A stretch of DNA of 64,000 nt from Candidatus Woesearchaeota archaeon. GTDB lineage: Archaea > Nanobdellota > Nanobdellia > Woesearchaeales > ARS49. Within the stretch, counting starts at the first letter, position 1; every line of letters starts with the position of its first letter. The translations under genes were made by a program, and so were the position numbers. The stretch is from the NCBI GenBank assembly GCA_030750765.1, contig JASMHM010000001.1, forward strand, positions 334,696 through 398,695. Direction: 5' to 3'. The notes under the pieces were generated by a model, which searched no databases, was not told the DNA's origin, and saw only the letters and a list, made by a program, of their open reading frames with translations. Shown here in pieces: positions 9,851 through 33,741 of the stretch.

Positions 9851-10900
9851 ATGATTAGGACGAGAACACCGTTCCGCATCACGCTCGGCGGAGGAGGCAC
9901 AGACCTGGCATCCTACTACGAACAGCACGGAGGCATGTGCCTTGCCGCAGCCGTTTCTTTGAATCTAGATATTCTCTTAAAACCCGCATGGGAGCAAGAT
10001 GACATCCTCGCACACTACTCAGAAAGCGAAAGAGTGCAGAGCCTGGAAGAGCTCAAAAATGAAAGATTAAGAGAATGCCTACGATATGCAGGCATCACCA
10101 AAAGAATAGAAGTTGCAAGCTTTGCCAGCGTAGGACCCAAGACAGGATTAGGAAGCAGCTCCAGTTTTGTTGTGGGATTACTCAAATCACTCTACGCCAT
10201 CCAAAATATTCACATTGACAAAGAAGAATTAGCACGAGCAGCATGCGAAGTAGAAGTAAACATACTCAAAAAACCCATGGGCAAACAAGATCAATACGCA
10301 GCAGCCTTTGGCGGCATGCAAATGTTCACCTTCGACCCTAATGGTGACGTGCGAGTAGAGCACATCAGCATGCCACGAACAAAAAGACAAGAATTGGACG
10401 AAAGACTACTACTTTTCTGGACAGGCGTGAGCAGAGACAGCGAAAGCGTGCTCAAAGACCAAGTGGTTCGCTCCGAAGAGATGGACCAAGACATGATGGA
10501 AAACTTACACCGAGTAAAAGAACTAGGCTTTGACAGCAAAGCAGCACTCCACAAAGGAGATCTAGAAAGGTTCGGCCAACTAATGCACACCCACTGGGAA
10601 AACAAGATCAAAAGAAGCCCAAACATGACCACAGAGAGCATCAGCAAATGGTACAACACCGGCATGGCCAACGGCGCAGTGGGCGGCAAGCTCGTGGGTG
10701 CCGGCGGTGGCGGATTCCTAATGTTCCTCGCAGATGACTCAGAAAAATTACGCTTAGCAATGAAGCAAGAAGGATTACAAGAAATCAGTTTCAATTTTGA
10801 CTCCGAAGGTTCAAGGGTGGTAGAAGACGACCGAAACCACAAGGTTGAAGTAGTAGGAATACAAGACGGAGTTAAAATGAAGGAGTTACAATGGCCATAG
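9851..10900 (+). CDS. GHMP-family sugar kinase (second HddA-like copy)
   Basis: MIRTRTPFRITLGGGGTD, GPKTGLGSSSSF and GGKLVGAGGGGF motifs. Confidence 0.8.
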   Translation: MIRTRTPFRITLGGGGTDLASYYEQHGGMCLAAAVSLNLDILLKPAWEQDDILAHYSESERVQSLEELKNERLRECLRYAGITKRIEVASFASVGPKTGLGSSSSFVVGLLKSLYAIQNIHIDKEELARAACEVEVNILKKPMGKQDQYAAAFGGMQMFTFDPNGDVRVEHISMPRTKRQELDERLLLFWTGVSRDSESVLKDQVVRSEEMDQDMMENLHRVKELGFDSKAALHKGDLERFGQLMHTHWENKIKRSPNMTTESISKWYNTGMANGAVGGKLVGAGGGGFLMFLADDSEKLRLAMKQEGLQEISFNFDSEGSRVVEDDRNHKVEVVGIQDGVKMKELQWP

Positions 10901-11604
10901 AAGAAATCAACACAAACATATACCCAACAGAGGAAATCAGCGTGGAGCCACTAGCTCCAATAGAAGAAGCAGAAATAGACACGGACGTCTTTGTACGCAC
11001 CTTCCTAAGCGAAGGACTACAACATCTCGGCAGTTTAATGATGAGCGAAGCCAACAACCGAGGTCTAAGCCTAGCACTAAAAGCACTCGACAGGTGCAGA
11101 CGCGACAAAAAAAGAATATTTCTCATAGGAAACGGCGGCAGCGCAAGCACCGCACAACACCTAACCAGCGACCTAAACAAATGGGCCACAGGAGACGGAC
11201 AAGCACCCGTGAGAGCCATCTGCCTGAATGACAACATGTCCAGCATGACTGCGCTAACCAACGACGACGGCTGGGAAAACGTGTACGAAGCACAACTAAA
11301 AAATCTAGAAGCCGAAGCAGGCGACGTTATCATCGCAATATCCGTCCACGGCGGAAAGGGATCAGACGCTGCCGGCGTGTGGAGTCAGAATCTAACCAAA
11401 GCGATCGCCAATGTCAAAGAACATGGAGGTTATGCCGTAGGCATCACCGGCTTTGATGGTGGCGCAATGGCAGAATTATGCGACGCCCACATCAACGTAC
11501 CCGCAGAAAGCACACCGCATGTAGAAGGTCTGCACCTTGTAGTCACACACTGCATCGTTGACGGTCTTAGAGTGATGGCGATGGGCAACTACCAGGAAAA
11601 GTGA
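10891..11604 (+). CDS. SIS-domain sugar-phosphate isomerase (phosphoheptose isomerase GmhA-like) with acidic N-terminal extension
   Basis: SIS motif IGNGGSASTAQH, about 190 aa of SIS core plus a ~45 aa acidic leader. Confidence 0.65.
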   Translation: MAIEEINTNIYPTEEISVEPLAPIEEAEIDTDVFVRTFLSEGLQHLGSLMMSEANNRGLSLALKALDRCRRDKKRIFLIGNGGSASTAQHLTSDLNKWATGDGQAPVRAICLNDNMSSMTALTNDDGWENVYEAQLKNLEAEAGDVIIAISVHGGKGSDAAGVWSQNLTKAIANVKEHGGYAVGITGFDGGAMAELCDAHINVPAESTPHVEGLHLVVTHCIVDGLRVMAMGNYQEK

Positions 11605-14733: not shown

Positions 14734-16116
14734 ATGCAGGCAATGGATACTATCTTAGTCTTGTGTACTGAAGGCGCAAGCTATCGCAATTTTGTCAACG
14801 CAGGCGTAATTGATGAACTAAAAAAGAAAGCAAAGATAGTGCTCGTCTGTGCAGACTGGATGGAGGAACACCTCAGAAAAAAGTATCCGGATCTTGCTCT
14901 AGAAATCGTATACGAACCCGGAAAAGCAGAGAGCATTGCAGACCATATTCGAATGACCAAGACGATCTACCGCGCTTCTGTCTGGCCAGACATTCAGACA
15001 AGTACCTTCAAGATTATTCGAGGAAGAACCATCAAAGAGCAACCCATCAAGTTCTGGATACGAAGAGGAATGGCCATTGCCTCAAGACCTGCAATAATCC
15101 AGGCAGGTCTGCGAAAGATTGCATGGCTGTGGCCAAAAAAACCAGTCAAAGAATTGTTCCAAAAGTATGACATCACCAAAGTTTTTTCCACCAACGTCCT
15201 CTGTCTTGACCATGTTCCCTACGCCGAATACGCACTCTGGAAGAACATACCTCTTGTTGCTGCGGTGCTGAGTTGGGACAACATGACCAGCAAAGGAACG
15301 CCCATGTACCTACCTAACCGATTACTCATGTGGGGACCAAAACAAAAAAAAGAGTGTATAAATCTGCACAACCTTCCAGAAAATATCTTGAGGGAGTGCG
15401 GAGCAGCACAGTTCGACTGTTACTTCAAGAACGACATACCCACAAAGTCAGAAGTGTTCAGCAAACTCAAGATACCCAAAAACGCCAAAGTGATAACCTA
15501 CGTTGGAGGAATTCCTGCCAACGTCATGGGCATGACTGCAGAAAACGAAAAAGTCATCGTAGACACCATACTCCAAGGAATGGATGATGGAAGCCTTCCA
15601 AGTGAAGCCATTCTTGTTATCCGCCCACACCCTGGCGTCAAGGACTGGGAACAGTACCAGACCTTTGAAAAACATCCAAAAGTAAGAATGAACTATCCTG
15701 CATGGTTCTTGCAGGGCAAAGAACCACCAAAAAGTTGGAATCCCAACTGGGAAGACCACAAATTCATGGGAGCCTTGATGAAGTACAGTAGCGTGGCTAT
15801 AACCCCCGGAGGAAGTGCCACCCTTGATGCAGCCTGCTTTGACAATCCTGCGGTAAACGTGTACTTTGACACGCCACCAAGACCTTATCTCTTTAGCCTG
15901 AAGAGCCACTGTGACTTTGCTCATCTGATATACCTACGAGAGTTCAGAGCCACCCCCTTTGTGGAGAGCACCGACGAACTATTAGAAGAAGTCAAGGACG
16001 GCTTTGAAAAACCAGCCAAATACAAGGAAGGCAGGAAGAAAATGTTGGACTCCATTATAGGAGCGCAAGACGGAAAAAGTGCGGTTCGCACTGCAGAAGA
16101 AGTTCTGGACGCATAG
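14734..16116 (+). CDS. putative TagB/TagF-like glycerophosphotransferase-family or GT-B-like enzyme
   Basis: IRPHPG and YSSVAITPGG...FDNPAVNVYFD segments resemble the PF04464-type catalytic region. This is a weak by-eye call. Confidence 0.4.
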   Translation: MQAMDTILVLCTEGASYRNFVNAGVIDELKKKAKIVLVCADWMEEHLRKKYPDLALEIVYEPGKAESIADHIRMTKTIYRASVWPDIQTSTFKIIRGRTIKEQPIKFWIRRGMAIASRPAIIQAGLRKIAWLWPKKPVKELFQKYDITKVFSTNVLCLDHVPYAEYALWKNIPLVAAVLSWDNMTSKGTPMYLPNRLLMWGPKQKKECINLHNLPENILRECGAAQFDCYFKNDIPTKSEVFSKLKIPKNAKVITYVGGIPANVMGMTAENEKVIVDTILQGMDDGSLPSEAILVIRPHPGVKDWEQYQTFEKHPKVRMNYPAWFLQGKEPPKSWNPNWEDHKFMGALMKYSSVAITPGGSATLDAACFDNPAVNVYFDTPPRPYLFSLKSHCDFAHLIYLREFRATPFVESTDELLEEVKDGFEKPAKYKEGRKKMLDSIIGAQDGKSAVRTAEEVLDA

Positions 16117-16165: not shown

Positions 16166-16897
16166 ATGATGCCAAGATTCTTTATCGACAGCAGCGACAT
16201 CAACGAGATTCGCACTGCCTATGAAACCGGTCTAGCCTTTGGTGTTACTACAAACCCACTAATCATTCTCAAGAACAATCCTGATCTAAGCATGCGCGAT
16301 GCCATACAAAAAATCTTAAGCACAGTACCAAACATCCCAATCAGTGTCCAAGTGACCGAGCAGGACCCAAGAAAGATGGTCCAGCAAGGCAAGGAATACC
16401 ATTCCTGGGGCCCAGAAAGGATCGTTGTCAAAATCCCTATGGGTGTTGTGCATAATGGAACGCCAAGCACGTATGCGATCAAAGAACTAGCAAGAGTGGG
16501 CATCCCTGTCAACGTGACAAGCTGTATGACCCGAGACCAAGCCTACGCCGGCATCGCTGCTGGAGCCCGCTACCTTTCCTTGTTCTGGTGCAGAATAAAA
16601 GATTCTGGCGGCAACCCAGAAGCAGAAACAAGAGCTACCAGAGAGATGATCCAAAAAGGCTTCCACTTCTCAGAACCACAACCCAAAGAAATCATTGTGG
16701 GCAGCTTAAGAGAGCCAGAAAACGTCTTCCAGGCCATGCAAGCAGGAGCACACATCATCACCATACCCTTCCTAAAGAAAGACGGTTCACCCCTGTTTGG
16801 CGCTGTCGTAGATCAGATGATCAACCACGAACGAACCGTAAGCACGAACGAAGAGTTCTTTGAAAAGGCAAAATCCATCCGCCAAGACGCAACTTAA
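16166..16897 (+). CDS. transaldolase/fructose-6-phosphate aldolase family (Fsa/TalC-like)
   Basis: FFIDSSDINEI, GVTTNP and VKIPMG motifs. Size matches the short transaldolase subfamily. Confidence 0.75.
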   Translation: MMPRFFIDSSDINEIRTAYETGLAFGVTTNPLIILKNNPDLSMRDAIQKILSTVPNIPISVQVTEQDPRKMVQQGKEYHSWGPERIVVKIPMGVVHNGTPSTYAIKELARVGIPVNVTSCMTRDQAYAGIAAGARYLSLFWCRIKDSGGNPEAETRATREMIQKGFHFSEPQPKEIIVGSLREPENVFQAMQAGAHIITIPFLKKDGSPLFGAVVDQMINHERTVSTNEEFFEKAKSIRQDAT

Positions 16898-20108: not shown

Positions 20109-22043
20109 ATGAAAATAGGAGACAAAGAAATTGGCTCACCCGTATTCATCATTGCAGAGATAGGCCTAAACCACGACGGCAGTGTTGACAAAGCAATAGA
20201 ACTTGTTGATGCAGCAAAAAAGGCAGGCGCACACGCAGTAAAGTTTCAAAAGCGAGATCTTGCGTCGTTATACCCGAGCGGCGTCATTGAAGGAAAGGAA
20301 AGCGCCGACCAAAGCGTAGAAACCTTAATCCCTGCGCTTATCAAATGCGAATTGTCAGAGGATGAACTGGACAAGATACGCCAGCACTGCGAAAGCACAG
20401 GAATAATGTTCTTCTTCACACCCTTTGATGAGAAGAGTGCAGACATCCTGGAAGGGAAAGTACCTTGTTACAAGATAGCAAGCGCCGACTGCGGCAATCT
20501 CTCCTTATTAGATTATGTTGCCAAGAAAGGAAAACCCCTCATCCTGAGCACAGGCATGACGCAGTTAGACCACGTCAAGAAAGTTGTTGCCTTCCTGCAA
20601 GAACGCAACGTCGAGTTCATGCTCAATCACTGCATCAGTGGCTATCCGCCCGGCACTGAAAGCTTGAATCTAAACTATTTGAAAGAACTACAAAAACTAG
20701 GCGTACCCATCGGGTACTCTGCGCACGAACTAGAACCAGAATATTCTTTGGTGGCTGTAGCCATGGGTGCTGTGGCCGTAGAAAAACACATCACCTATGA
20801 CCGGAGCGCCCCAGGACCCGACCACAAAGCAAGCCTTACACCCGAAGAGTTCGCAGAAGCCGTCCAACTAATCAAACAAAACATGAGCTATGAAGAAGTC
20901 CTTGAAAAGTATCCACACGTCAAAGAAAGTCTAGGTACAGGAGAACGCGTGCTAACACGAGAGGAAGAACTTTCAAAGATCCCACTACAAAAATCCATAT
21001 ACCTAAAGAAGGATGTTGCTGTAGGCAGCAAGCTCACAAAAGAAGACTTGTGGGTGCGCGGCCCTGGAGGCGGCATGAACCCTATTTGTTATTATGATGT
21101 TGTTGGCAAGACCTTGAAACGAGATGCAAAGCAAGGAGAGGCCCTACGAGAGGCACACTTTGAGGAAAAGAGCGACGATTGGCCCAGAGATTTCAAGCAA
21201 GATTGGGGATTTAAGCTGCGACCTGCAGAAGCCGAAGACTTCAGAGATGAAGACATGCCTCTTTTTGAGTTTCACATGAGCCCTGCAGACATCGTACGAC
21301 CTTTCAAGCCAGACAAAAAGTTCAAACAACGCTTAGTCGTGCACACCGCCGAAATATTACCTGAAGATCTAGGCTTTTCTGGCACCGACACGAGAAGCTA
21401 CGTAGACATGTGCAGCTCTGATGATGAAGTAAGAAAGGCAAGCGTTGAAATGATGAAGCGCACGATCAAAAAAACCAAAGAGATGGCCCCCTATTTTGAG
21501 GGCATACCTAAAGTGGTTATCCATGTGGGCGGCTACTCAACAACCAAAGATTTTGATGAAGAATTACGCGGAAAAATGTTTGCTCTAGGTGTTGACAGCT
21601 TTGCCCAGCTAGACAAGGAAGGAGTTATTCTCTTACCTGAAAACATGCCTCCCTTCCCTACTCACGCAAGTGCACGGTGTTATCAAGCGTTCTTTTCCAA
21701 AGCAGAAGATCTGGTGAAGTTTTGCCAAGCAACCAAACTAAAAGCGTGTTTTGACACCAGTCACGCGCAATTGTACTGCAACGCGTATGGTGGAACGTTG
21801 TTAGACTATGCAAAAAAGGTGCTGCCCTATACCGACCATTTGCACATCGCAGATAGCAGCGGTATTGATGGTGAAGGGTTGCAAATTGGCGAGGGCATGG
21901 TGGACTTCCCACCCATTTTCGAACTTTTCAAAGACAAAACGTTCACCTGGGTTGGAGAGATTACAAACGGTCATAAAGATGACTACGAAGGGTTTAAGGA
22001 AGCGAATAGACAACTAAAAAAGATTGCCAGCACTATTCTGTGA
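20109..22043 (+). CDS. N-acetylneuraminate/nonulosonate synthase (NeuB family, with SAF domain) fused to a C-terminal xylose-isomerase-like TIM-barrel (sugar phosphate isomerase/epimerase) domain
   Basis: N-terminus FIIAEIGLNHDGS...AVKFQKR (NeuB). SAF-like C-terminal segment. Then ~290 aa with HVGGY...FDTSHAQL...HLHIADS...GEG motifs of AP-endonuclease-2/xylose-isomerase-like barrels. Confidence 0.7.
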   Translation: MKIGDKEIGSPVFIIAEIGLNHDGSVDKAIELVDAAKKAGAHAVKFQKRDLASLYPSGVIEGKESADQSVETLIPALIKCELSEDELDKIRQHCESTGIMFFFTPFDEKSADILEGKVPCYKIASADCGNLSLLDYVAKKGKPLILSTGMTQLDHVKKVVAFLQERNVEFMLNHCISGYPPGTESLNLNYLKELQKLGVPIGYSAHELEPEYSLVAVAMGAVAVEKHITYDRSAPGPDHKASLTPEEFAEAVQLIKQNMSYEEVLEKYPHVKESLGTGERVLTREEELSKIPLQKSIYLKKDVAVGSKLTKEDLWVRGPGGGMNPICYYDVVGKTLKRDAKQGEALREAHFEEKSDDWPRDFKQDWGFKLRPAEAEDFRDEDMPLFEFHMSPADIVRPFKPDKKFKQRLVVHTAEILPEDLGFSGTDTRSYVDMCSSDDEVRKASVEMMKRTIKKTKEMAPYFEGIPKVVIHVGGYSTTKDFDEELRGKMFALGVDSFAQLDKEGVILLPENMPPFPTHASARCYQAFFSKAEDLVKFCQATKLKACFDTSHAQLYCNAYGGTLLDYAKKVLPYTDHLHIADSSGIDGEGLQIGEGMVDFPPIFELFKDKTFTWVGEITNGHKDDYEGFKEANRQLKKIASTIL

Positions 22044-22635
22044 TGTGGCTAACATCATTCACGTGTTTGACGCGCACGTGTCTGCCGTCGATGGTCACGA
22101 TGTTTAAGCAACAATTATCCTGTTCGTAGCGATAACGTAGGTTGTGTGGTATGTTCATGAAATGCCCGAGGATCACTGCGTTGAGGCTGCCGTGCGCGAT
22201 GAAAAGTATCTTACCCTTTGCTTCCTTTATGACATTCTCTATGAACGGTATCACACGGTTGTGGACGTCCTCCATGTTCTCACCATCAGGAGGACGAACA
22301 TCCTCCTCTCTTGCCCATCTTTCTTCGAGATCAGGGTGCTGAGCATGGACTTCATTCATGCGCATACCATCCCAGCCTCCCTTGCCTCGCTCTTTTAGTT
22401 CCTCAACCGGGATGATCTCTTGGTTGTGGTGTTTGTTTATTATCTCAGCAGTTGCCCGAGCCCTGCCTAGGGTGCTGGTGAAGATTTTCTCAAACTTCAC
22501 GTCCTTGAGTCGGAGGGCAAGCTGCTCTGCCTCCTTTTTCCCTTTTTCAGTGAGTCCAGAATCAGTCTGTCCTTGGGTTATCCCCGACTTGTTGCCTTCT
22601 GTCTCGCCGTGGCGTGCTAGGTAGAGTTCGATCAT
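22033..22635 (-). CDS. histidine phosphatase family (phosphoglycerate mutase-like) protein
   Basis: LYLARHGETEGN catalytic RHG motif. 200 aa. Confidence 0.75.
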   Translation of the reverse strand: MIELYLARHGETEGNKSGITQGQTDSGLTEKGKKEAEQLALRLKDVKFEKIFTSTLGRARATAEIINKHHNQEIIPVEELKERGKGGWDGMRMNEVHAQHPDLEERWAREEDVRPPDGENMEDVHNRVIPFIENVIKEAKGKILFIAHGSLNAVILGHFMNIPHNLRYRYEQDNCCLNIVTIDGRHVRVKHVNDVSHITE

Positions 22636-23324
22636 AGTAGGACCTCTGCGAATTTTAGGTCGTTAAGCGTGTCGATGTTGAGGCTTTCCTTCTCATCTAA
22701 CACCAGAGGCAGAATAGTGTCGCCAACAATGGAGTTTTTCTCTGTAAGCACGCTTGTACGGATGACGTTCACGGCACCATTATGCCTGTAGACCGTGTCC
22801 ATCCATTCTTTAGGGGCACGACCTGCGTCTTTGCCAGTCATACTTTCAGGCAGGAAGGGTTTGAGGTACTCTCCTTCCTTTTTCCATATTTTGAAGGGAT
22901 GGTCGTGGGTTTCGTGGACGCTCATAACGCTGTCTGTCTCAGGATGTTGGGTGAGCAGGTCTATACCCTTGTCAATGCTTTCTCCTGTGCGTAGAGGATT
23001 GGTTGGCTTGAGTTGGACGACAAGTTCTGGAATGTAACCTTCTTTTTTGAGTTCAGCTAGCGCGTGCTTCAACACCGGTAAGCTCTTTGCCTTGTCAGTT
23101 GCATGCTCTTCTGGCCGCAGGAAGGGCACCTCTGCGCCGTGTTGTTGTGCCACGTCGGCAATCTCCTGACTGTCAGTGCTTACGATGATTCGTGGTTTGT
23201 GTTTGCTGGACTTGGCAGCGTCGAGGGTCCACGCGATGAGTGGCTTGCCTGCTAAGGGAATGATATTTTTCTTAGGGATACGCTTACTTCCCCCTCTTGC
23301 TTGGATAACCACTAAGACGTCCAT
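22632..23324 (-). CDS. acylneuraminate cytidylyltransferase family (CMP-nonulosonate synthetase, NeuA-like)
   Basis: VIQARGGSKRIPKKN N-terminal motif typical of CMP-NeuAc/CMP-Kdo synthetases. Confidence 0.75.
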   Translation of the reverse strand: MDVLVVIQARGGSKRIPKKNIIPLAGKPLIAWTLDAAKSSKHKPRIIVSTDSQEIADVAQQHGAEVPFLRPEEHATDKAKSLPVLKHALAELKKEGYIPELVVQLKPTNPLRTGESIDKGIDLLTQHPETDSVMSVHETHDHPFKIWKKEGEYLKPFLPESMTGKDAGRAPKEWMDTVYRHNGAVNVIRTSVLTEKNSIVGDTILPLVLDEKESLNIDTLNDLKFAEVLL

Positions 23325-23365: not shown

Positions 23366-24448
23366 TTAGTACGGGCTGAAGATCTCATCTACCTTGACCG
23401 TTCTCCCTTCCTTGTTGGAGAGCGAGGCAGCCATGATGACCTTCATGGTTTCATAACCGCTTCTGAGATTGTACTCTAGAGGGGGTAGTTTGCCTTGCTG
23501 GATGCACTCTAAGAACAGTTTTTCTTCGTTGATAAACCATTGGTCTCGTTTTTCTTTCATAGAATGCACTTTTTCGTGTTTTACCTTCCCCTCGTCTACG
23601 CGCATCACGACAACGTCATTGTCACCCTGTCTATCCCACAGTATGGTGCCCTCTGTGCATCGTACTAAGAAGTGGGCGCGGCTTTGATTGCAAAAGAGAT
23701 CTGTGTGTGCGGTCCCATAGACACCATTCTTGAATTTGAGTATGAGCTCGGCGTTGTCATTGCTTGTCGTGGTGATGTCAGTAACCTTTCCGGTCATGCA
23801 CATCACGCTTTCTATACCCCCGCCGATGTGTAGTAACAGGTTGATGCCATGGCTGTCCTCGAGCATGGTGTCTCCTCCCATTTCTTTATGACCAATAAAC
23901 CAAGAGTCTGGAGGATGACCGAGATGCATGAGATTGGCGCTGTGGCTGTTCTCCGAGTGGAATGCCACAGGATCTCCGACCACTTTTTGTTCAATTAATT
24001 CCTTGATCTTCTTGACAGGTTCGCTGTGCCGGTTCATGTAGCCTATCATAGCGACTAACTTTTTCTCTTCGATGAGTTTGAAAAGGTCCTTAAGATTCTT
24101 TTGTTCTCTTTGTGTGCGTAGCTTTTGCTGGGCTGCGTCTTCCTTAGGATGGACTTCTTCGAAGTCTAAGCATAATGGCTTTTCGCAGAGGATGTGCAGG
24201 CCTTTTTTGGCACATTCTAGTGCGCACTCGATGTGGAAGCGTGCGGGTGTGCCTATGACTGCGGCTACGAAGTCTCCTTCCAATGCTTTGTGAAGGTCTT
24301 CATGAACGGGAATGCCTATTTCTTTTATTACTTCGTTGCGAACGTCCTCTTTGGGTTCTACGCCTTCTACCTCACAGCCTTGTGCTAGAAAGTTCTTCAT
24401 GTGACGTTGGCCTATACTTCCACCACCAACGACGAGTATCCTTGTCAT
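23366..24448 (-). CDS. Gfo/Idh/MocA-family oxidoreductase
   Basis: MTRILVVGGGSIGQRH Rossmann motif and EKP motif (LCEKPL). ATG at 24448 preferred over the track's GTG 24460. Confidence 0.75.
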   Translation of the reverse strand: MTRILVVGGGSIGQRHMKNFLAQGCEVEGVEPKEDVRNEVIKEIGIPVHEDLHKALEGDFVAAVIGTPARFHIECALECAKKGLHILCEKPLCLDFEEVHPKEDAAQQKLRTQREQKNLKDLFKLIEEKKLVAMIGYMNRHSEPVKKIKELIEQKVVGDPVAFHSENSHSANLMHLGHPPDSWFIGHKEMGGDTMLEDSHGINLLLHIGGGIESVMCMTGKVTDITTTSNDNAELILKFKNGVYGTAHTDLFCNQSRAHFLVRCTEGTILWDRQGDNDVVVMRVDEGKVKHEKVHSMKEKRDQWFINEEKLFLECIQQGKLPPLEYNLRSGYETMKVIMAASLSNKEGRTVKVDEIFSPY

Positions 24449-24471
24449 GTTTTCTTTCACAAGCGTTTTGC

Positions 24472-25572
24472 TTATAAACTTTCCTCCATCAAGAATCCAT
24501 AGTGTTCTACTGCGGTTAGTGCGTTGGGGAAGATGCGTTTGGGTAGCTTATCCAGCAGGCCCGGAAGTCTATCACCCTCATAGTAGTGCCTTCGTAGGCT
24601 TCTTAGCGAGCGCATGAGCTCCCATCGTACGATATATGGAACTAGACTTTGTAATTCTTCTGCAGAGAGCAGTCGTACGCTGTTGTATCCTGCAAGAAAG
24701 GCCCTTGTTGCTTCTTTGTAGCTGTCCCACACGCCTTGGTGGATGGCGTTGCCCACAAAATGCATGAGAGAGTTGGCCACGTCGTCAGCAAGTGGCGCCA
24801 CGGCAAGGTTGTCAAAGTCCAGCATGGCAACGATCTTTCCTTGTCTTACGAGCGTGTTGTTGGGGTGGAAGTCCATGTGGCAGATGCCTTGTTGGAGTGC
24901 TTTGGGATGTAAGTGTTGTTGGACAAACCGCATGAGCTTGTCAACGTGGGGAATGTTTCGTTTGAAGTATGCGCACACTTCTGGTTTGCTGCACGCGTGG
25001 CCTTCTGCGAGATCTTGTTTTAGCTGCTCCCACACGGGCACAGAATCTTCAAAGGGTTTGTCAAAGGGAATGTGTGTGGGAATCTCTTCATAAAGGTTGG
25101 GTTGGGCTTCTAGAAGGCGTAGGCCTACTTGGTGGAATTGCGCTAGCAATCTTCCTGCGTCCTCTAGCTCTGCCTTGGTTGTTGTGGCATGTTCCCCTAG
25201 TACGAAAGGATGTAAGGAGAAAAAATTCTGGTCCTCCACCGCGACATCTTTGGCCGGTAAGGGTACTGGCAATCCTTGTGACTGAAAATGGGCGGTGAGT
25301 TTTTCGATAAAGGCGTGTGCAGTGTGCGATGCCTGTTTTTCTTTTTCTGTTGTTGCCGGCCTCCACAACAAATGTTTGAGTAGGTACACAGTATCTTTGG
25401 TGTTCACACGGAATATCCTACTTACCGGCGTGGGCTCGTTGTATTGTGAGATGTGCTCGACGTCGTTTACACCAAAATGGGTTTGTAACACTTGGATAAG
25501 TTGCTTTTTCTCAGCTTCATCTATCGACGTGAAAGAGATAGCTTCTGTGGGCATGGCACCGATGGCTTGCAT
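24472..25572 (-). CDS. aminoglycoside-phosphotransferase (APH) family kinase
   Basis: Brenner motif ICHMDFHPNNTLV and downstream LDFDNLAV (DFD) motif. Confidence 0.6.
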   Translation of the reverse strand: MQAIGAMPTEAISFTSIDEAEKKQLIQVLQTHFGVNDVEHISQYNEPTPVSRIFRVNTKDTVYLLKHLLWRPATTEKEKQASHTAHAFIEKLTAHFQSQGLPVPLPAKDVAVEDQNFFSLHPFVLGEHATTTKAELEDAGRLLAQFHQVGLRLLEAQPNLYEEIPTHIPFDKPFEDSVPVWEQLKQDLAEGHACSKPEVCAYFKRNIPHVDKLMRFVQQHLHPKALQQGICHMDFHPNNTLVRQGKIVAMLDFDNLAVAPLADDVANSLMHFVGNAIHQGVWDSYKEATRAFLAGYNSVRLLSAEELQSLVPYIVRWELMRSLRSLRRHYYEGDRLPGLLDKLPKRIFPNALTAVEHYGFLMEESL

Positions 25573-25596: not shown

Positions 25597-26550
25597 TTAA
25601 ACTTGCTGGACTGGAAGTTCTCTGATCCAAGTAATCATTTCCTTAAGACCCTCGTCGAAGTCTTTGGTTGGTTCCCAACCTAGAACGTCCTTTGATTTGG
25701 TGTTGTCTGGAACCCTTCTTCGGACGTCGTGCTTGAACTCTTGGACGTTCTTGACTTCTAAGGTTCCTTCTTGACCAGAAAGAGCAAAAATCTTATTTGC
25801 AAGATCAATCATGGTGATCTCGTGATTGCTTCCTATGTTAAAACTCTCGTTGACTGCTTTTTCTGACTCTGCTGCGAGGATGAATCCTCGGGCCATGTCG
25901 CTAACATGAGTGAAGCATCTTGTTTGCTCTCCATCCCCAAGCATTTCCATGGTGCCGCCAGCTAGTATTTTCCTGATAAAGTCAGGAATCACGTTAGCGT
26001 AGCCAACTTCTTGGTGTAAGTAAGAGTTCACACCATAACAGTTGAAAGGTCGGATGATGGTGTAGTTGACCCCAAACTCTTCGGAGTATGCTTTTGCGTA
26101 ATATTCTGTGACGAGTTTGGAAAAGCCGTAGATGTTTTTTGGAGGAGGGATCTCGCCAACATCAGATTCTTTGCTGGGAAATCGATCAGTATCTGCAAAG
26201 ACCATGCTGCTGCTTGCAACAACAACCCTTTTCGTGCCTGCCTTTTTTGCTGCCTCGAAGACTGCAGATAACAATTTTAAACTTCCATCAAGGATGGTGG
26301 CGGGTTTTTGACTCATATAGCCCACCCCTCCTACTTTTGCAGCCAAGTGCAGGCATACATCGATGCCTTCCATGGCCTTGTCCGCGTTTTCTTGTAGGGT
26401 TAGATCTCCGTTCAAGAATTCTACACCTTCAGGCTCTTGTCCGGTCTTGCTGAGGTTATCAGCTACGCGAACCGTATGACCTTTTGCGAGTAATTGTTTG
26501 CATACTTCGCGTCCGATAAATCCTGCTCCTCCGGTAACTAGAATGTTCAT
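25597..26550 (-). CDS. NAD-dependent epimerase/dehydratase
   Basis: MNILVTGGAGFIG N-terminus and a YxxxK (YAKAYSEE) motif. Confidence 0.8.
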   Translation of the reverse strand: MNILVTGGAGFIGREVCKQLLAKGHTVRVADNLSKTGQEPEGVEFLNGDLTLQENADKAMEGIDVCLHLAAKVGGVGYMSQKPATILDGSLKLLSAVFEAAKKAGTKRVVVASSSMVFADTDRFPSKESDVGEIPPPKNIYGFSKLVTEYYAKAYSEEFGVNYTIIRPFNCYGVNSYLHQEVGYANVIPDFIRKILAGGTMEMLGDGEQTRCFTHVSDMARGFILAAESEKAVNESFNIGSNHEITMIDLANKIFALSGQEGTLEVKNVQEFKHDVRRRVPDNTKSKDVLGWEPTKDFDEGLKEMITWIRELPVQQV

Positions 26551-28250
26551 AGCGGCACAAATCTCACATGAGGTAGTTTTTCGATGTCTTCTGAGCTTAC
26601 TCCCCAGCCGTCAAAGAGAAGTAATGGCTTTTCTGTTTTTTGGGCTAGCCGGAAAATGTCCAAGTCAGAATGTGAAGAATGGTTGTTCAAAAACAATACT
26701 GCATGCGCACCATCAAACCCTTCTTCAGGTGTTGTTGGCTTTACTCCAAACTCGTTGAGTTCTGTTGCGTCAACAACCGCATCGTAACCGTGCACGTTGG
26801 TAATTCCCGCAGCTTTTAGATGTGATAGTATGTCTAGCGTTGTGGAAAATCTGGTATCACTAGTTTCTGGTCTTCCTTTGAAGGCAAATCCTAGTAGAAA
26901 CACTTTCATTTGTTCTTTAGGAATGCCGTGTTCCTGACAAAAGGCTAGAACTCTTTCGGAAACGTAGTATGGCATGCTTTCGTTGGTCTTTCTGGTTATC
27001 GGAATTATTTGGGGTGTGAAGCCTGCCTTTTTTGCGCTGTGCATGAATAAGTAAGGATCCTTTCTTAGACAATACCCACCCACGCCTGGACTGGGTTGTG
27101 GCATGTTGCCTCGCGGATATCCTTCGTTTGCTCTTGCAATTATCTTGTTGGCTGATAGGTTCAAGCTGTTGCATGCTAGTGCGAATTCGTTGACAATACC
27201 AAACGTTGCATCTCTATACACGTTGTTTAGCAATTTTGCCATCTCGGCCTCCTCCAAGGAGTCCATGCTAACAATGAAGGGCGTTAACTCTCTAAAGATA
27301 TTGATGGCGATGTCTGTGCTTTGCTTGTTGTATCCGCCAACGATTTGGGGCAGCTCACGCAATTCCTGTAGTGCCTTCCCTTCTAGGGTGCGTTCGGGCA
27401 TGCTTGCAAAGTGGAACATTCCCGCCTTCATGCCTGATGCTTGTTGTAGAGCAGGCAGGACCACGCTTCTGCAGGTTCCTACAGGCACGGTACTTCGTAC
27501 GATGACAACGTCTCCTCTTTTCAGGACGTTGCCCACTGCGTTACTTGCAGCTTTGATATGTTCCAGGTTTGGCTCGTTGTTCGGCTGGACAGGTGTGCCC
27601 ACGCAAATAATGTAGACGTCTGCCTCTTCAGGCATGTTTGACTGGATGGTTAGGGTTCTGTTGAGTGTTCGCTCCAACACTTTTTGCAATCCTGTTTCGT
27701 GGAAGGGAGGATTTCCTTGATTAAGCATGTCTACGATTTCTTGGCTGATGTCTGTTCCTGTCACCTTGAGTCCAACGTCTGCCATGGTTGCGGCTAACGT
27801 TAACCCCACATAGCCCATGCCTACGATACACACATGTCTTGTTTTGGCTTCGCTTGCTCGCCAGATGTCATAAAAGTTCAGTATGTCTGACACTTTCTTT
27901 GGATGTTCGTGATACAGGAGCACTTGTCTGATGTTGAAGCCGGACTGTGGCTCCTTGCCGCGTGATCGTAACTCTTCCTCAATGCCTTTAACCAATTCAG
28001 GATAGCTTAAGGCGTCAGACATCACGATGGGTTCTGCGTTCATGATGTCTTTTATGGGAGAATCGAGCGTGGCCCCGCTTATCAGCCCCTTTCTGATGTC
28101 TCCATCGGTGACTATGCCTTGTAGTTGTTTGTCAGCGTCAACGACCAGGGCTATGCCTGCTTGGGCCCCTTTTCTTGGAGCCTCGTTAATCACGGTCAAT
28201 ACCTCTTTTATCGTGGCTGTGGAGGCCACATGTAGGTCTTCGATATTCAC
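26547..28250 (-). CDS. nucleotide-sugar dehydrogenase (UDP-ManNAc/UDP-GlcNAc 6-DH-like) with N-terminal CBS-domain pair
   Basis: N-terminal ~125 aa show CBS-like repeats (GIVTDGDIRK). Then CIVGMGYVGLTLA Rossmann motif and catalytic GGYCLRKD. Confidence 0.7.
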   Translation of the reverse strand: MNIEDLHVASTATIKEVLTVINEAPRKGAQAGIALVVDADKQLQGIVTDGDIRKGLISGATLDSPIKDIMNAEPIVMSDALSYPELVKGIEEELRSRGKEPQSGFNIRQVLLYHEHPKKVSDILNFYDIWRASEAKTRHVCIVGMGYVGLTLAATMADVGLKVTGTDISQEIVDMLNQGNPPFHETGLQKVLERTLNRTLTIQSNMPEEADVYIICVGTPVQPNNEPNLEHIKAASNAVGNVLKRGDVVIVRSTVPVGTCRSVVLPALQQASGMKAGMFHFASMPERTLEGKALQELRELPQIVGGYNKQSTDIAINIFRELTPFIVSMDSLEEAEMAKLLNNVYRDATFGIVNEFALACNSLNLSANKIIARANEGYPRGNMPQPSPGVGGYCLRKDPYLFMHSAKKAGFTPQIIPITRKTNESMPYYVSERVLAFCQEHGIPKEQMKVFLLGFAFKGRPETSDTRFSTTLDILSHLKAAGITNVHGYDAVVDATELNEFGVKPTTPEEGFDGAHAVLFLNNHSSHSDLDIFRLAQKTEKPLLLFDGWGVSSEDIEKLPHVRFVPL

Positions 28251-32284: not shown

Positions 32285-33741
32285 ACGTTCCTTACATCCC
32301 AAACCTTTAGTGACATCCTCCCAATCCTAAAGGACTGGGCTTCCAGTTAAAAACCTTTTGCTGGAGGGTTCCTGCTTCACAGACTGACTTACCCCGAGAG
32401 GTAGCGGTCCTGTCTCTACAGGCGTGAATTCGGGCAAGCCCTGCCCTACTGCTCTCTTCAATATTTCCAAAGCGGAATTGAAATCTCTATCCATAACAAA
32501 ACCACATTCACACTCGTGCGTTCTCTGTGATAACTCTTTCTTTTCTTTCCTTCCACATGCTGAGCACGTTTGTGTTGTTCCTCTGGGGTCTACTTTGATT
32601 ACTCGAGTGCCCGCACTTTCGGCCTTGTACTCAAGCATTCTAACAAAGCAAGCCCAAGAAGCATCCATAATATTCCTTGCATTAAACGATGAGCGAATCA
32701 TTCCATGTATGTTCAAGGCCTCAACAGCAATAAAAGTATATGTTTTTGCATACCCACGTGAAAGCTTGTGGAGAAAATCATTGCGCTGGTCAACGATTTT
32801 TTCGTGGACTCTCGCAACTCTCCTCTTTTGTTTTTCTCTGTTTCGAGAACCTTTTTTTGTTCTGGAGAGTCGTTTTTGTGCTCTTCTCAATCGCTTCAAA
32901 CTCTTTCCCAAAATTTTTGGACTGTCTTCCCGATGCCCATCGCTGTCAAACACGAAATTGGTTATGCCCAGATCAATACCGACAGCTTTCTCGTCACGAG
33001 CCGGCAGAGGTTTCGTAGTTGATTCTGCGGCAACAAATGCAAACCACCTCCCGCTCGCATGTTTTTTGATGGTGACTTGTTTAATCTTTCCTTCAATCTC
33101 ACGATGCATGATGAAGGGAATTTTGTCAATTTTGGAAAGATGGAGTAAGTCGTAGCGTGTGTTTCGTGGGATGATTTTGAATCCGGATTGGTTGTACGTG
33201 AAGGTTTTGAACCAGGCCTTGCCTTTGAATCTTAGCTTGCCTACCTTCATTCCCTTCCTCTTCAGACCAGACAGCACTCTTAGGTGAGCAAACAAACGAT
33301 AATTCTCATACTGTAAAACTTTTGAATATGCATCACACAATTCAGGATGTTTTCTTTTAATCTCTAAGATAAAATGTTGCAGATCCACCTGTTTAATCTT
33401 CTTTTTGCTAAATCGTTCCAGCAAGGCGTCGTACACAAAACGACACCTGTCAAGCGTCCACAATAATTTCTTCTCTTGAGGGGGTGTTGGGTACAACCGA
33501 AATTTATACGTTCTTATCATACAAACTTTAGCAAGATTTACACCCCTATATGCTTCACGCACGCATGTCCAGTGTCCAGTGACTCCGACGAGAAAAACCG
33601 GAAATCTTCCGGGAAAATAGCCTAAAGAATAGAGTAATCGACCGGTATGCCCTAACACAAACAACGAAGCAAAAGTAGGATTTATAAAAGTACGAATGAC
33701 CCACACCATACCTTTTTAAGGAACCGACGAGGTGTTGATGA
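32285..33741 (-). mobile_element. IS1341-type (solo tnpB) insertion; element ends not defined
   Basis: tnpB without an adjacent tnpA (no HuH motif ORF nearby). Inserted in the divergent intergenic region between the GT4 and methyltransferase genes. Confidence 0.35.
32327..33520 (-). CDS. tnpB: IS200/IS605-family TnpB (OrfB) RNA-guided endonuclease-like protein
   Basis: N-terminus MIRTYKFRLYPT is an OrfB_IS605 hallmark. RuvC-like region, and C-terminal zinc finger CSACG...CECG. The track's N-terminal extension (to 33709) is rejected. Confidence 0.8.
   Translation of the reverse strand: MIRTYKFRLYPTPPQEKKLLWTLDRCRFVYDALLERFSKKKIKQVDLQHFILEIKRKHPELCDAYSKVLQYENYRLFAHLRVLSGLKRKGMKVGKLRFKGKAWFKTFTYNQSGFKIIPRNTRYDLLHLSKIDKIPFIMHREIEGKIKQVTIKKHASGRWFAFVAAESTTKPLPARDEKAVGIDLGITNFVFDSDGHREDSPKILGKSLKRLRRAQKRLSRTKKGSRNREKQKRRVARVHEKIVDQRNDFLHKLSRGYAKTYTFIAVEALNIHGMIRSSFNARNIMDASWACFVRMLEYKAESAGTRVIKVDPRGTTQTCSACGRKEKKELSQRTHECECGFVMDRDFNSALEILKRAVGQGLPEFTPVETGPLPLGVSQSVKQEPSSKRFLTGSPVL

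What the first reader, a model, noticed from the sequence alone, without database searches (positions are those of the whole stretch)
20109..22043. NeuB-type nonulosonate synthase fused to a xylose-isomerase-like TIM-barrel domain
The first ~350 aa look like NeuB/PseI/LegI (AEIGLNHDG, KFQ, SAF domain). The last ~290 aa carry AP-endonuclease-2/sugar-phosphate-isomerase-like motifs (HVGGY, FDTSHAQL, HLHIADS). This fusion suggests a coupled isomerisation or epimerisation of the hexose precursor before or after condensation with PEP. Canonical sialic, legionaminic and pseudaminic pathways do not contain this coupling.
Basis: partly seen in the sequence, partly recalled or inferred. Interest (0 to 1): 0.55.

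Follow-up and report, generated by a model that had tools for sequence, protein, structure and literature searches.

The report
Sialic-acid-type synthase fused to metalloenzyme barrel

Summary
Window 20109..22043 (+) is one uninterrupted 644-aa ORF carrying NeuB, SAF and AP_endonuc_2 (xylose-isomerase-like TIM barrel) domains.

- **Distribution.** The fusion is not a local oddity. At least 503 species genomes encode this C-domain family. In 78 of 81 loci examined it lies in the same ORF as NeuB. Rare cases have two adjacent genes in the same order.
- **Context.** The only strongly conserved neighbour is a CMP-sugar cytidylyltransferase (57 of 81 loci; window 22632..23324).
- **N-domain.** All NeuB catalytic residues are kept. 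It carries the marks of phosphosugar-using synthases: KFQKR, SGHE, E134D and loss of R314, as in the Man-6-P-specific Prymnesium Kdn-9-P synthase and eukaryotic NanS.
- **C-domain.** By sequence profile it is closest to MJ1311 and endonuclease IV, not to sugar epimerases. Seven of the nine Endo IV metal ligands are conserved.
- **Best reading (about 45%).** The protein is a nonulosonate-9-phosphate synthase with a fused Endo IV-like phosphatase. Together with the cytidylyltransferase it forms a two-gene route to a CMP-nonulosonate.

I found no publication on this architecture.

The parts
20109..22043 (+). Whole fusion gene, 644 aa plus stop codon
   Evidence: Single ORF. Three Pfam domains. 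Full-length AlphaFold model has pLDDT 90.9 and pTM 0.85.
20142..20879 (+). NeuB-type PEP-condensing (aldolase-like) TIM-barrel domain, aa 12-257
   Evidence: PF03102 at 229 bits. TIGR03569 matches aa 12-345 but scores below its equivalog cut-off. N. meningitidis NeuB 1xuu matches at E 3e-47. The equivalents of E25, K53, Q55, K129, S132, S154, Y186, S213, H215, E234 and H236 are invariant in 189 fusion proteins. E134 is D in 189/189 and H57 is R in 189/189.
20994..21164 (+). SAF (antifreeze-like) domain, aa 296-352
   Evidence: PF08666 at 26.4 bits against a cut-off of 21. It aligns to the AFP domain of 1xuu. The R314 equivalent is G, S or A in all 189 sequences.
21180..22040 (+). Endo IV / MJ1311-like metal-binding TIM barrel (AP_endonuc_2), aa 358-644
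22632..23324 (-). CMP-nonulosonate/Kdo-type cytidylyltransferase; the conserved partner gene
   Evidence: PF02348 at E 2.4e-29. The best NCBIfam match is PseF, below cut-off. Members of the same cluster occur in 57 of 81 fusion loci, and are adjacent in 32.
22033..22635 (-). Histidine-phosphatase family gene, convergent with the fusion and overlapping its 3' end by 11 nt; specific to this window, role uncertain
   Evidence: PF00300 at E 2e-57. It is absent from the syntenic relative L006 and from the other 80 loci.
23366..24460 (-). Gfo/Idh/MocA oxidoreductase; a recurrent accessory neighbour
   Evidence: Pfam. Its cluster is present in 18 of 81 loci. It lies directly beside the fusion in L001, L006, L021 and L054.
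14734..16116 (+). 460-aa protein of a recurrent, weakly TagF-like family; candidate transferase for the CMP-sugar
   Evidence: Weak PF04464 match. Its cluster is present in 19 of 81 fusion loci, within two genes in 10.
25597..28250 (-). NAD-dependent SDR epimerase/dehydratase (25597-26550) and CBS-fused NDP-sugar dehydrogenase (26547-28250); accessory, shared with locus L001
   Evidence: The SDR partners across loci belong to several different subfamilies, so this is not one conserved orthologue.

Best explanation
**Proposal.** The gene encodes a bifunctional enzyme of a CMP-nonulosonic-acid (sialic-acid-like sugar) pathway.

- **Step 1, inferred from sequence signature.** The N-terminal NeuB+SAF module condenses phosphoenolpyruvate with a 6-phosphorylated hexose, of the Man-6-P or ManNAc-6-P type. 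The product is a nonulosonate 9-phosphate, as made by animal NanS and by algal and Bacteroides Kdn-9-P synthases.
- **Step 2, inferred.** The fused C-terminal TIM barrel belongs to the endonuclease IV / MJ1311 branch of the xylose-isomerase-like superfamily and keeps a multi-metal His/His/Glu + Glu/Asp/His/Glu centre. It hydrolyses the 9-phosphate. In this it replaces the HAD-type phosphatase (NANP, Kdn-9-P phosphatase) used by the known pathways.
- **Step 3, supported by gene context.** The cytidylyltransferase at 22632..23324 activates the free sugar acid to its CMP form. Glycosyltransferases of the surrounding glycan island then use it.

**Shown:** one intact ORF; three domains; intact NeuB catalytic residues; metal ligands conserved; fusion conserved across phyla; cytidylyltransferase linkage.

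**Inferred:** the phosphosugar substrate, the phosphatase activity and the identity of the sugar.
For: 1. **Architecture.** There is one ORF with three domains. The same architecture occurs in all 120 listed homologues and in 78 of 81 genome loci from many phyla. Split adjacent genes in the same order occur in L086 and L087. Family size is 267 clusters at 50% identity with E<=1e-30.
2. **Minimal module.** CTP_transf_3 is the only strongly conserved neighbour (57 of 81 loci, 32 adjacent). NeuC, aminotransferase and acetyltransferase genes are not conserved. The SDR partners are heterogeneous.
3. **N-domain signature.** In 189 fusion proteins, E134 is D in 189/189, R314 is G/S/A in 189/189, and the NmNeuB T56/H57 positions read K (170/189) and R (189/189), giving 'KFQKR'. 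NmNeuB 'SDHT' reads 'S[GSA]H[ED]'.
   - The experimentally Man-6-P-specific P. parvum Kdn-9-P synthase has KFQKR and SGHH (PMC6200933).
   - PMC8208679 reports E134D and loss of R314 in eukaryotic ManNAc-6-P-using NanS, and places E134 near the 6-phosphate.
4. **Internal control in the same loci.**
   - NeuB paralogues with KFQT/SDH/R314 sit next to NeuC (L001, L054, L082).
   - SAF-less paralogues with KFQKR/SGHE sit directly after CTP_transf_3-HAD phosphatase fusion genes (L043, L051, L073).
   - The cytidylyltransferases beside the fusion are 143-272 aa and have no HAD domain.
5. **No other phosphatase.** HAD and histidine phosphatases are absent from 76 of 81 fusion loci.
6. **C-domain affinity.** The profile hits MJ1311 at 5e-17 and Endo IV at 8e-7 to 7e-3, against 0.04-0.12 for UlaE and D-tagatose 3-epimerase.
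7. **Metal ligands.** E. coli Nfo ligands H69, H109, E145, D179, H182, H216 and E261 map to H412, H472, E511, D549, H552, H579 and E617. Five of these are invariant; H472 and E511 are conserved in 176 of 189.
8. **Precedent.** The superfamily contains a small-molecule phosphoesterase, CbiR (PMC7733943). From general knowledge, Endo IV also has 3'-phosphatase activity, and synthase-phosphatase fusions are common in sugar-phosphate pathways such as trehalose-6-P and sucrose-6-P.
Against: - No enzyme of the AP_endonuc_2 superfamily is known to be a sugar-phosphate monoesterase.
- The two Endo IV ligands of the third metal site (D229, H231) are not conserved in register. The fusion has D-G-E-G where MJ1311 has D-D-E-H.
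- A 13-member CBS-containing subfamily has N and Q at the H109 and E145 positions.
- BLAST identity of the N-domain to NmNeuB and to the Kdn-9-P synthase is about equal, near 32%. The phosphosugar assignment therefore rests on a few signature positions and a small number of characterised references.
- This window has a separate histidine-phosphatase gene next door.
- One locus (L073) places a different, UlaE-like TIM barrel beside a phosphosugar-type NeuB that already has a HAD phosphatase. TIM-barrel sugar-phosphate epimerases can therefore take part in such pathways.
Confidence: 0.45

Rival explanations
1. The TIM barrel is a metal-dependent sugar(-phosphate) isomerase or epimerase, or a dehydratase. 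It would either make the correct aldose for the NeuB domain (for example ketose-6-P to Man-6-P-like aldose) or re-configure the nine-carbon product. The fusion would pull an unfavourable equilibrium through the irreversible PEP condensation.
For: - PF01261 is dominated by sugar isomerases, epimerases and dehydratases.
- The E-D-H-E tetrad used by the epimerases is present (E511, D549, H579, E617).
- Invariant H552, D582 and E589 could form a xylose-isomerase-like second metal site.
- Gfo/Idh/MocA oxidoreductases, frequent partners of such TIM barrels, are in 18 of 81 loci.
- L073 has a UlaE-like TIM barrel beside a phosphosugar-type NeuB.
- The window has its own His phosphatase, which could do the dephosphorylation.
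Against: - Sequence-profile similarity to epimerases is marginal (E 0.04-0.12), against 5e-17 and 8e-7 for MJ1311 and Endo IV.
- H412 and H472 occupy the Endo IV H69 and H109 positions. These positions are not metal ligands in ketose 3-epimerases (my knowledge of the PcDTE and AtDPE structures).
- If the substrate is a phosphosugar, the pathway would lack a phosphatase in 76 of 81 loci.
- The His phosphatase is missing even in the closest relative, L006.
- Gfo is absent from most loci.
Confidence: 0.25
2. The TIM barrel is a phosphodiesterase that acts before the synthase. It would release a free sugar from a nucleotide sugar (GDP-Man, UDP-GlcNAc or a modified NDP-sugar) and so replace the hydrolysing epimerase NeuC/LegG or the hydrolase PseG.
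For: - The active site is Endo IV-like, and Endo IV and CbiR are phosphodiesterases.
- No NeuC or PseG is linked to the fusion.
- NDP-sugar-modifying SDRs lie within two genes in 24 of 81 loci, and an NDP-sugar dehydrogenase is present in the window and in L001.
Against: - The N-domain lacks the R314 and E134 features of free-sugar NeuBs and carries the phosphosugar-type signature.
- The SDR partners are a mixture of unrelated subfamilies and are absent from most loci.
- Simple pyrophosphatase cleavage would give a sugar-1-phosphate, which cannot act as the aldehyde substrate.
Confidence: 0.1
3. The C-domain is not catalytic in this particular archaeal protein. It would be a structural or oligomerisation module, or a decayed enzyme. 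The neighbouring histidine phosphatase would have taken over its job.
For: - The Woesearchaeota subgroup (the window, P0001-P0003 and L006) has lost W518, W524 and W619, which are conserved in more than 165 of 189 relatives (W518 185, W524 166, W619 184), and also differs in the 'HAPE' and 'PEIW' motifs.
- A His phosphatase gene abuts the fusion here only.
Against: - All metal-ligand positions (H412, H472, E511, D549, H552, H579, D582, E589, E617) are intact in the window protein.
- The domain is confidently folded (pLDDT 93).
- The close relative L006 keeps the same divergent C-domain without any His phosphatase.
Confidence: 0.05

Closest known systems
Kdn-9-phosphate pathway of Bacteroides thetaiotaomicron and Prymnesium parvum (Kdn-9-P synthase, Kdn-9-P phosphatase, CMP-Kdn synthetase)
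   Same: - It uses a NeuB-family synthase that condenses PEP with a hexose 6-phosphate.
- The signature residues KFQKR and SGH[HE] are shared with the P. parvum enzyme.
- A phosphatase step and then a CTP_transf_3-type activation follow. A cytidylyltransferase is genetically linked here too.
   Different: - The known phosphatase is a separate HAD-family enzyme. Here no HAD is present and an Endo IV-like TIM barrel is fused to the synthase.
- The P. parvum synthase lacks a SAF domain, whereas the fusion keeps one.
- Overall identity is only about 30%.
- The substrate and product of the fusion have not been tested.
Animal sialic acid synthase NANS (NanS) plus Neu5Ac-9-P phosphatase NANP
   Same: The domain layout is NeuB + SAF. 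The E134D change and the loss of R314, reported for eukaryotic NanS (PMC8208679), are both present in all 189 fusion proteins.
   Different: NANS has no third domain, and NANP is a separate HAD enzyme. The fusion is prokaryotic and falls below the NCBIfam NeuB and PseI equivalog cut-offs.
Bacterial NeuB (N. meningitidis SiaC, PDB 1xuu/1xuz), LegI and PseI
   Same: It is the best solved-structure match for aa 2-349 (E 3e-47). All PEP, metal and catalytic positions are conserved.
   Different: The free-sugar enzymes have E134, R314, KxQT[HF] and SDH[TS], and they are linked to NeuC-type genes. The fusion differs at each of these points.
MJ1311 of Methanocaldococcus jannaschii (PDB 3wqo, 'D-tagatose 3-epimerase-like protein', function unknown) and endonuclease IV (Nfo, PDB 1qtw/5zhz/2x7v)
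   Different: - The D229 and H231 equivalents are not conserved in register.
- I made no test for a DNA-binding groove.
- The domain is always tied to a sugar synthase, so DNA is an unlikely substrate.
- Identity is only 16-21%.
CbiR cobamide phosphodiesterase (AP endonuclease 2 superfamily)
   Same: It is a precedent for an Endo IV-superfamily TIM barrel that hydrolyses a small-molecule phosphoester (PMC7733943). There is a weak NCBIfam hit (E 0.05).
   Different: It is a diesterase acting on cobamides. It is not fused to a synthase. The similarity is far below cut-off.

Membership tests
NeuB family (PF03102) nonulosonate/sialic acid synthases | Profile match above the curated threshold | tested here: met
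   229 bits against a cut-off of 22.1, aa 32-257.
NeuB family (PF03102) nonulosonate/sialic acid synthases | Catalytic, metal and PEP-binding residues (NmNeuB E25, K53, Q55, K129, S132, S154, Y186, S213, H215, E234, H236) | tested here: met
   All are present in the window protein and invariant in 189 fusion proteins.
Bacterial N-acetylneuraminate synthase NeuB (TIGR03569 equivalog) | Score at or above the equivalog cut-off (399.65 bits) | tested here: not met
   275.9 bits.
Pseudaminic acid synthase PseI (TIGR03586 equivalog) | Score at or above the equivalog cut-off (340.25 bits) | tested here: not met
   206.3 bits.
Free-sugar NeuB/LegI/PseI type | Glu at NmNeuB 134 and Arg at 314 (SAF domain arginine contacting the N-acyl group) | tested here: not met
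   D127 and G318 in the window protein. D in 189/189 and G/S/A in 189/189 across the family.
Phosphosugar-using synthases (NanS / Kdn-9-P synthase type) | Sequence marks reported or seen in characterised members: E134D, loss of R314, KFQK[RS], SGH[EH] | tested here: met
   with reference sequences and statements from PMC6200933 and PMC8208679.
Phosphosugar-using synthases (NanS / Kdn-9-P synthase type) | Activity with hexose 6-phosphate and not with the free hexose | not testable with these tools
   This needs an enzyme assay.
SAF domain (PF08666) | Profile match above threshold, C-terminal to the NeuB barrel | tested here: met
   26.4 bits against 21, aa 296-352. It aligns to the AFP domain of 1xuu.
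Xylose isomerase-like TIM barrel (PF01261, AP_endonuc_2) | Profile match above threshold and a (beta/alpha)8 fold | tested here: met
Endonuclease IV (Nfo) | Nine ligands of the trinuclear metal site (H69, H109, E145, D179, H182, H216, D229, H231, E261) | tested here: inconclusive
   Seven are conserved (H412, H472, E511, D549, H552, H579, E617). D229 and H231 are not in register.
Endonuclease IV (Nfo) | DNA-binding groove and action on abasic DNA | not tested
Genomic context argues for a sugar substrate.
Ketose 3-epimerases / sugar isomerases of the same superfamily (DTE, DPE, UlaE, XI) | E-D-H-E metal and catalytic tetrad | tested here: met
   E511, D549, H579 and E617. The tetrad is shared with Endo IV, so it does not discriminate.
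Ketose 3-epimerases / sugar isomerases of the same superfamily (DTE, DPE, UlaE, XI) | Significant sequence-profile relationship to characterised members | tested here: inconclusive
   E 0.04 (UlaE) and 0.12 (DTE) with the family profile. The folds are similar.
HAD-type NulO-9-P / Kdo-8-P phosphatases (NANP, BT1713, KdsC) | HAD (Hydrolase_3) domain | tested here: not met
   There is no HAD match in the fusion. HAD domains occur only in 4 of 81 loci, three of them in CTP_transf_3-HAD genes that accompany other NeuB paralogues. Any phosphatase role would be by analogy, not homology.

The most novel reading that the evidence does not exclude
The Endo IV/MJ1311-like barrel is a new kind of small-molecule enzyme, and its activity was the reason for the fusion. 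The evidence leaves two versions open.

1. It is the first sugar-phosphate monoesterase of this superfamily. In that case the fusion plus a cytidylyltransferase is a self-contained two-gene route from a central hexose phosphate to a CMP-nonulosonate.
2. More radically, it re-models the nine-carbon acid itself by epimerisation or dehydration. The module would then make an as yet undescribed ulosonic acid.

In either version the product would be used on Desulfobacterota flagellins, in sulfated Chloroflexota polymers, in cyanobacterial polysialic-like polymers and on DPANN archaeal glycans.
Probability: 0.2. Interest if true: 0.8.

Novelty: new variant of a known kind. Interest (0 to 1): 0.58.

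Why it matters
Nonulosonic acids (sialic, legionaminic, pseudaminic acids and Kdn) shape the surfaces of microbes. Surveys find them throughout environmental communities, but the genes are usually assigned by homology to a few pathogen pathways.

This fusion marks a widespread pathway variant that current annotation labels simply 'N-acetylneuraminate synthase family'.
- It occurs in at least 503 species genomes across Chloroflexota, Acidobacteriota, Desulfobacterota, Planctomycetota, Cyanobacteria, Patescibacteria, Bacillaceae and DPANN archaea.
- If the phosphatase reading is right, a DNA-repair-type metal barrel has been recruited as a sugar-phosphate phosphatase.
- It would also mean that the 'eukaryote-like' phosphorylated route to sialic-acid-type sugars is common in prokaryotes.
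- It gives a compact two-gene cassette (fusion plus cytidylyltransferase) for making a CMP-nonulosonate, which is directly testable and potentially useful for glyco-engineering.
- It offers a first functional lead for the orphan structure MJ1311.

Tried and rejected
1. **Frameshift or two genes.** Rejected. The ORF is continuous, and the one-ORF form is seen in 78 of 81 loci. Rare split forms exist (L086, L087) but keep the same gene order.
3. **Whole-domain BLAST of the N-domain against NmNeuB and P. parvum Kdn-9-P synthase.** The two are about equidistant, near 32%. Only signature positions discriminate.
4. **A single conserved NDP-sugar-modifying partner.** Rejected. The 'SDR epimerase' cluster mixes GMD-like, UXS-like, tyvelose-epimerase-like and other subfamilies.
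5. **The neighbouring His phosphatase as an integral pathway member.** Rejected as a general feature. It is absent from the syntenic relative L006 and from all other loci.
6. **The APH-family kinase at 24472..25572 as a sugar 6-kinase feeding the synthase.** Not pursued. No such kinase recurs in other loci.
7. **Literature.** Searches for NeuB or nonulosonic with xylose isomerase, AP endonuclease or sugar phosphate isomerase found no paper on the fusion. The large NulO-synthase phylogeny (PMC8208679) does not mention it. The MJ1311 structure paper is not held. My statement that it reports Endo IV's nine ligands as conserved comes from memory, although eight of them are visible in the alignment.
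Full report
**1. Observation**

Window 20109..22043 (+) is a single ATG-initiated ORF of 644 aa with no internal stop.

Pfam gives three domains:
- NeuB, aa 32-257, 7.6e-68
- SAF, aa 296-352, 1e-5
- AP_endonuc_2, the 'xylose isomerase-like TIM barrel', aa 386-613, 1.8e-22

NCBIfam matches NeuB_NnaB (276 bits) and PseI (206 bits), but both score below their equivalog cut-offs of 400 and 340. Against solved structures, aa 2-349 match N. meningitidis NeuB (E 3e-47), and the C-terminal part weakly matches MJ1311. AlphaFold models are confident:
- C-domain alone: pLDDT 93, pTM 0.92
- Full length: pLDDT 90.9, pTM 0.85

The high full-length pTM suggests a fixed arrangement of the domains.

**2. How common is the fusion?**

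All 120 best homologues in the 5.8-billion-protein collection are 620-680 aa with the same three domains. The nearest, at 94% identity, is from a Candidatus Woesearchaeota MAG. The rest are about 40% identical and come from Acidobacteriota, Chloroflexota, Desulfobacterota and others. Sources name them only 'N-acetylneuraminate synthase family protein' or 'sialic acid synthase SpsE/sugar phosphate isomerase/epimerase'.

They span many phyla. Cultured carriers include Thalassobacillus devorans, Pseudalkalibacillus caeni, Ningiella ruwaisensis and Leptothermofonsia.

An exhaustive HMMER search of 1.84 billion representatives found 267 clusters at 50% identity with E<=1e-30.

In 81 loci analysed, 78 carry the C-domain in the same ORF as NeuB+SAF. 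The other three look like split or truncated genes. Genuine two-gene versions exist, with NeuB+SAF directly followed by the TIM barrel (L086 and L087). I saw three variants:
- A roughly 750-aa form with an N-terminal CBS domain.
- A 962-aa Woesearchaeota form with an additional C-terminal methyltransferase.
- The Woesearchaeota subgroup that includes the window. It has lost three tryptophans that are conserved elsewhere.

The window is syntenic with the Woesearchaeota contig L006 at 80-86% nucleotide identity.

**3. Genomic context**

The window gene sits in a large glycan-biosynthesis island. I clustered all ORFs of the 81 loci. The only strongly conserved neighbour is a CTP_transf_3 cytidylyltransferase, found in 57 of 81 loci and adjacent in 32. 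The commonest order is cytidylyltransferase then fusion. In the window it lies at 22632..23324.

Other recurrent neighbours are lineage-specific:
- Heterogeneous NAD-dependent SDRs (32 of 81 loci, several unrelated subfamilies).
- A weakly TagF-like 460-aa protein (19 of 81; window 14734..16116).
- Gfo/Idh/MocA oxidoreductases (18 of 81).
- adh_short dehydrogenases (17 of 81).
- KpsC/KpsS-like 'Capsule_synth' proteins, PAPS synthase and sulfotransferases in Chloroflexota.
- An HTH-methyltransferase-like protein, a small GT1 and radical-SAM enzymes beside flagellin genes in Desulfobacterota.
- GT38 polysialyltransferase-like genes in cyanobacteria.

The GT38-like and KpsC/KpsS-like neighbours belong to families that use CMP-sialic acid or CMP-Kdo donors. 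NeuC, aminotransferases and acetyltransferases are not conserved partners. In L001 a canonical NeuA-NeuB-NeuC set sits next to the fusion module, so the fusion is not simply a replacement for NeuB there. The core is therefore the fusion plus a cytidylyltransferase. This implies that the substrate is a common metabolite.

**4. The NeuB domain**

All catalytic, metal and PEP-binding positions of NmNeuB are invariant in 189 non-identical fusion proteins. Four positions differ systematically from free-sugar NeuBs:

| NmNeuB position | State in the 189 fusion proteins |
|---|---|
| E134 | D in 189/189 |
| R314 | G, S or A in 189/189 |
| 'KHQTH' (E. coli-type 'KFQT[HF]') | 'KFQKR' (K in 170/189, R in 189/189) |
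| 'SDHT' | 'S[GSA]H[ED]' |

I translated the P. parvum Kdn-9-P synthase from the paper's supplement. That enzyme was shown experimentally to accept only Man-6-P (PMC6200933). It has KFQKR and SGHH. PMC8208679 reports E134D and loss of R314 as the distinguishing changes of eukaryotic, ManNAc-6-P-using NanS, and places residue 134 near the 6-phosphate.

The same loci provide an internal control.
- NeuB paralogues with the free-sugar marks lie next to NeuC (L001, L054, L082).
- SAF-less paralogues with the KFQKR/SGHE marks lie immediately after genes that fuse CTP_transf_3 to a HAD (Hydrolase_3) phosphatase (L043, L051, L073). That gene set is the classical synthase, phosphatase and activation set.

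Whole-domain identity does not discriminate, being about 32% to both reference enzymes. I infer, but cannot show, that the fusion's synthase uses a 6-phosphosugar and makes a 9-phosphorylated product.

**5. The TIM-barrel domain**

Foldseek gives the same mixture. Fold does not decide the function.

Sequence does better. The family profile matches the following:
- MJ1311 at E 5e-17
- Endo IV enzymes at 8e-7 to 7e-3
- UlaE at 0.04
- D-tagatose 3-epimerase at 0.12

MJ1311 is listed as the Endo IV homologue of M. jannaschii in PMC2770678. I confirmed that my E. coli Nfo sequence is identical to 1qtw. I then mapped its ligands through the family HMM and the 5zhz alignment:
- H69 to H412
- H109 to H472
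- E145 to E511
- D179 to D549
- H182 to H552
- H216 to H579
- E261 to E617

Five of the seven are invariant in 189 sequences. H472 and E511 are conserved in 176 of 189. The 13 exceptions are the CBS-containing subfamily, which has N and Q at those positions.

The remaining two ligands (D229, H231) are not conserved in register. The fusion has D-G-E-G where MJ1311 has D-D-E-H, although E589 is invariant.

The E-D-H-E tetrad is common to all family members. The additional His/His pair is, to my knowledge of the DTE and DPE structures, characteristic of the Endo IV-type multi-metal phosphoesterase site and not of the epimerases. CbiR shows that this superfamily also contains small-molecule phosphoesterases (PMC7733943).

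**6. Synthesis**

The most economical model is a bifunctional nonulosonate-9-phosphate synthase/phosphatase. The N-domain makes the 9-phosphate. The fused barrel removes it, standing in for the HAD phosphatase of the known pathways. The adjacent cytidylyltransferase then activates the product.

Supporting points:
- HAD and histidine phosphatases are absent from 76 of 81 fusion loci.
- The cytidylyltransferases next to the fusion lack the HAD domain found next to the other phosphosugar-type paralogues.

Caveats:
- No member of this superfamily is a proven sugar-phosphate monoesterase.
- The third metal site is altered.
- The window has its own His phosphatase next door, although the closest relative L006 does not.
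- L073 shows a UlaE-like barrel next to a phosphosugar-type NeuB that already has a HAD partner.

I put the phosphatase model at about 0.45. The other readings are:
- An upstream NDP-sugar phosphodiesterase, about 0.10.
- A non-catalytic domain in this archaeal subgroup, about 0.05.

The identity of the sugar is open. It may be Kdn-like or Neu5Ac-like, or methylated or sulfated derivatives, as suggested by the fused or neighbouring methyltransferases and the PAPS genes.

**7. Comparison with the known, and novelty**

The protein is a member of the NeuB, SAF and AP_endonuc_2 Pfam families. It is not an equivalog of bacterial NeuB or PseI, and it lacks two defining residues of the free-sugar enzymes. 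It would work like the NanS/NANP or Kdn-9-P synthase/phosphatase pairs, but with a non-homologous, fused second enzyme.

Searches of 8 million full texts found no paper that mentions NeuB or nonulosonic acids together with xylose-isomerase or AP-endonuclease domains. The large NulO-synthase phylogeny does not mention the architecture either.

The fusion is therefore visible in databases but uncharacterised. I rate it a new variant of a known kind. It is of moderate to high interest to glycobiologists and enzymologists, and the proposal is directly testable.

Noticed in passing
L086:509-2391 and L087:584-2506: Two-gene versions of the same system. NeuB+SAF (349 and 344 aa) is followed directly by a free-standing C-domain homologue (278 and 276 aa). 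The genes overlap by 4 nt in L086 and are separated by 57 nt in L087. The two halves can therefore function as separate polypeptides.
   Followed up: partly
L021:5816-8704: Another Woesearchaeota genome encodes a 962-aa triple fusion of NeuB, SAF, TIM barrel and a class I SAM methyltransferase. This hints that the product sugar is methylated. Methyltransferase genes are also frequent neighbours elsewhere.
   Followed up: partly
L049:8588-10852 and 12 similar loci (L035, L038, L042, L044, L058, L062, L065, L070, L072, L080, L083, L085): A roughly 750-aa subfamily occurs in cyanobacteria, Bacillaceae, Ningiella, Sphingomonas and others. It has an extra N-terminal CBS domain and KFQ[ML]R instead of KFQKR. 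It has Asn and Gln at the Endo IV H109 and E145 positions of the barrel. In cyanobacteria it sits beside a GT38 polysialyltransferase-like gene and an ABC (Wzm/Wzt-like) exporter.
   Followed up: partly
L043:6639-8842, L051:2678-4814, L073:444-2668: Genes that fuse a CTP_transf_3 cytidylyltransferase to a HAD (Hydrolase_3) phosphatase are followed immediately by a SAF-less NeuB of about 290 aa carrying the KFQKR/SGHE marks. This looks like a compact Kdn-type pathway. In L043 it lies directly upstream of the fusion; in L051 and L073 it lies several genes upstream.
   Followed up: partly
L073:2721-3641: A different, UlaE/SgbU-like AP_endonuc_2 protein (307 aa, not a member of the fusion's C-domain family) lies directly after a SAF-less phosphosugar-type NeuB and before Gfo/Idh/MocA and SDR genes.
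   Followed up: partly
window 22033-22635 (-): A histidine-phosphatase (His_Phos_1) gene converges on the fusion and overlaps its 3' end by 11 nt. No such gene is found in the other 80 loci. The syntenic relative L006 has an unrelated 295-aa ORF there and an extra Gfo/Idh/MocA gene upstream of the fusion.
   Followed up: yes
window 26547-28250 (-): An NDP-sugar dehydrogenase (closest to UDP-ManNAc dehydrogenase, below cut-off) carries an N-terminal CBS extension of about 135 aa resembling the CBS part of KpsF/GutQ.
   Followed up: no
window 2738-3934, 9851-11604, 16166-16897: A gene set that looks like an NDP-heptose pathway: an NTP_transferase-HAD fusion, a GHMP kinase, a SIS-domain isomerase and a fructose-6-phosphate aldolase/transaldolase-like gene. 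A second GHMP kinase lies at 637-1710.
   Followed up: no
window 32327-33709 (-) and 34679-34795 (+): An IS605 OrfB/TnpB-like gene (OrfB_IS605 plus a Cas12f1-like TNB domain) lies at the edge of the glycan island, about 1 kb from a 5S rRNA gene. No tRNA genes were found in the 64-kb window.
   Followed up: no
L001, L003, L043, L051, L063, L069, L071, L074, L078, L079, L084: In Chloroflexota/Anaerolineae the fusion module is embedded with a bifunctional ATP-sulfurylase/APS-kinase gene, and sulfotransferase genes are annotated or clustered in several of these loci (L001, L003, L051, L071, L084; also L012). KpsC/KpsS-like genes accompany it in L003, L043, L051, L063, L071, L079 and L084. This suggests a sulfated ulosonic-acid polymer and fits reports that sialylation and sulfation co-occur in granular-sludge EPS (PMC10483923).
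   Followed up: partly
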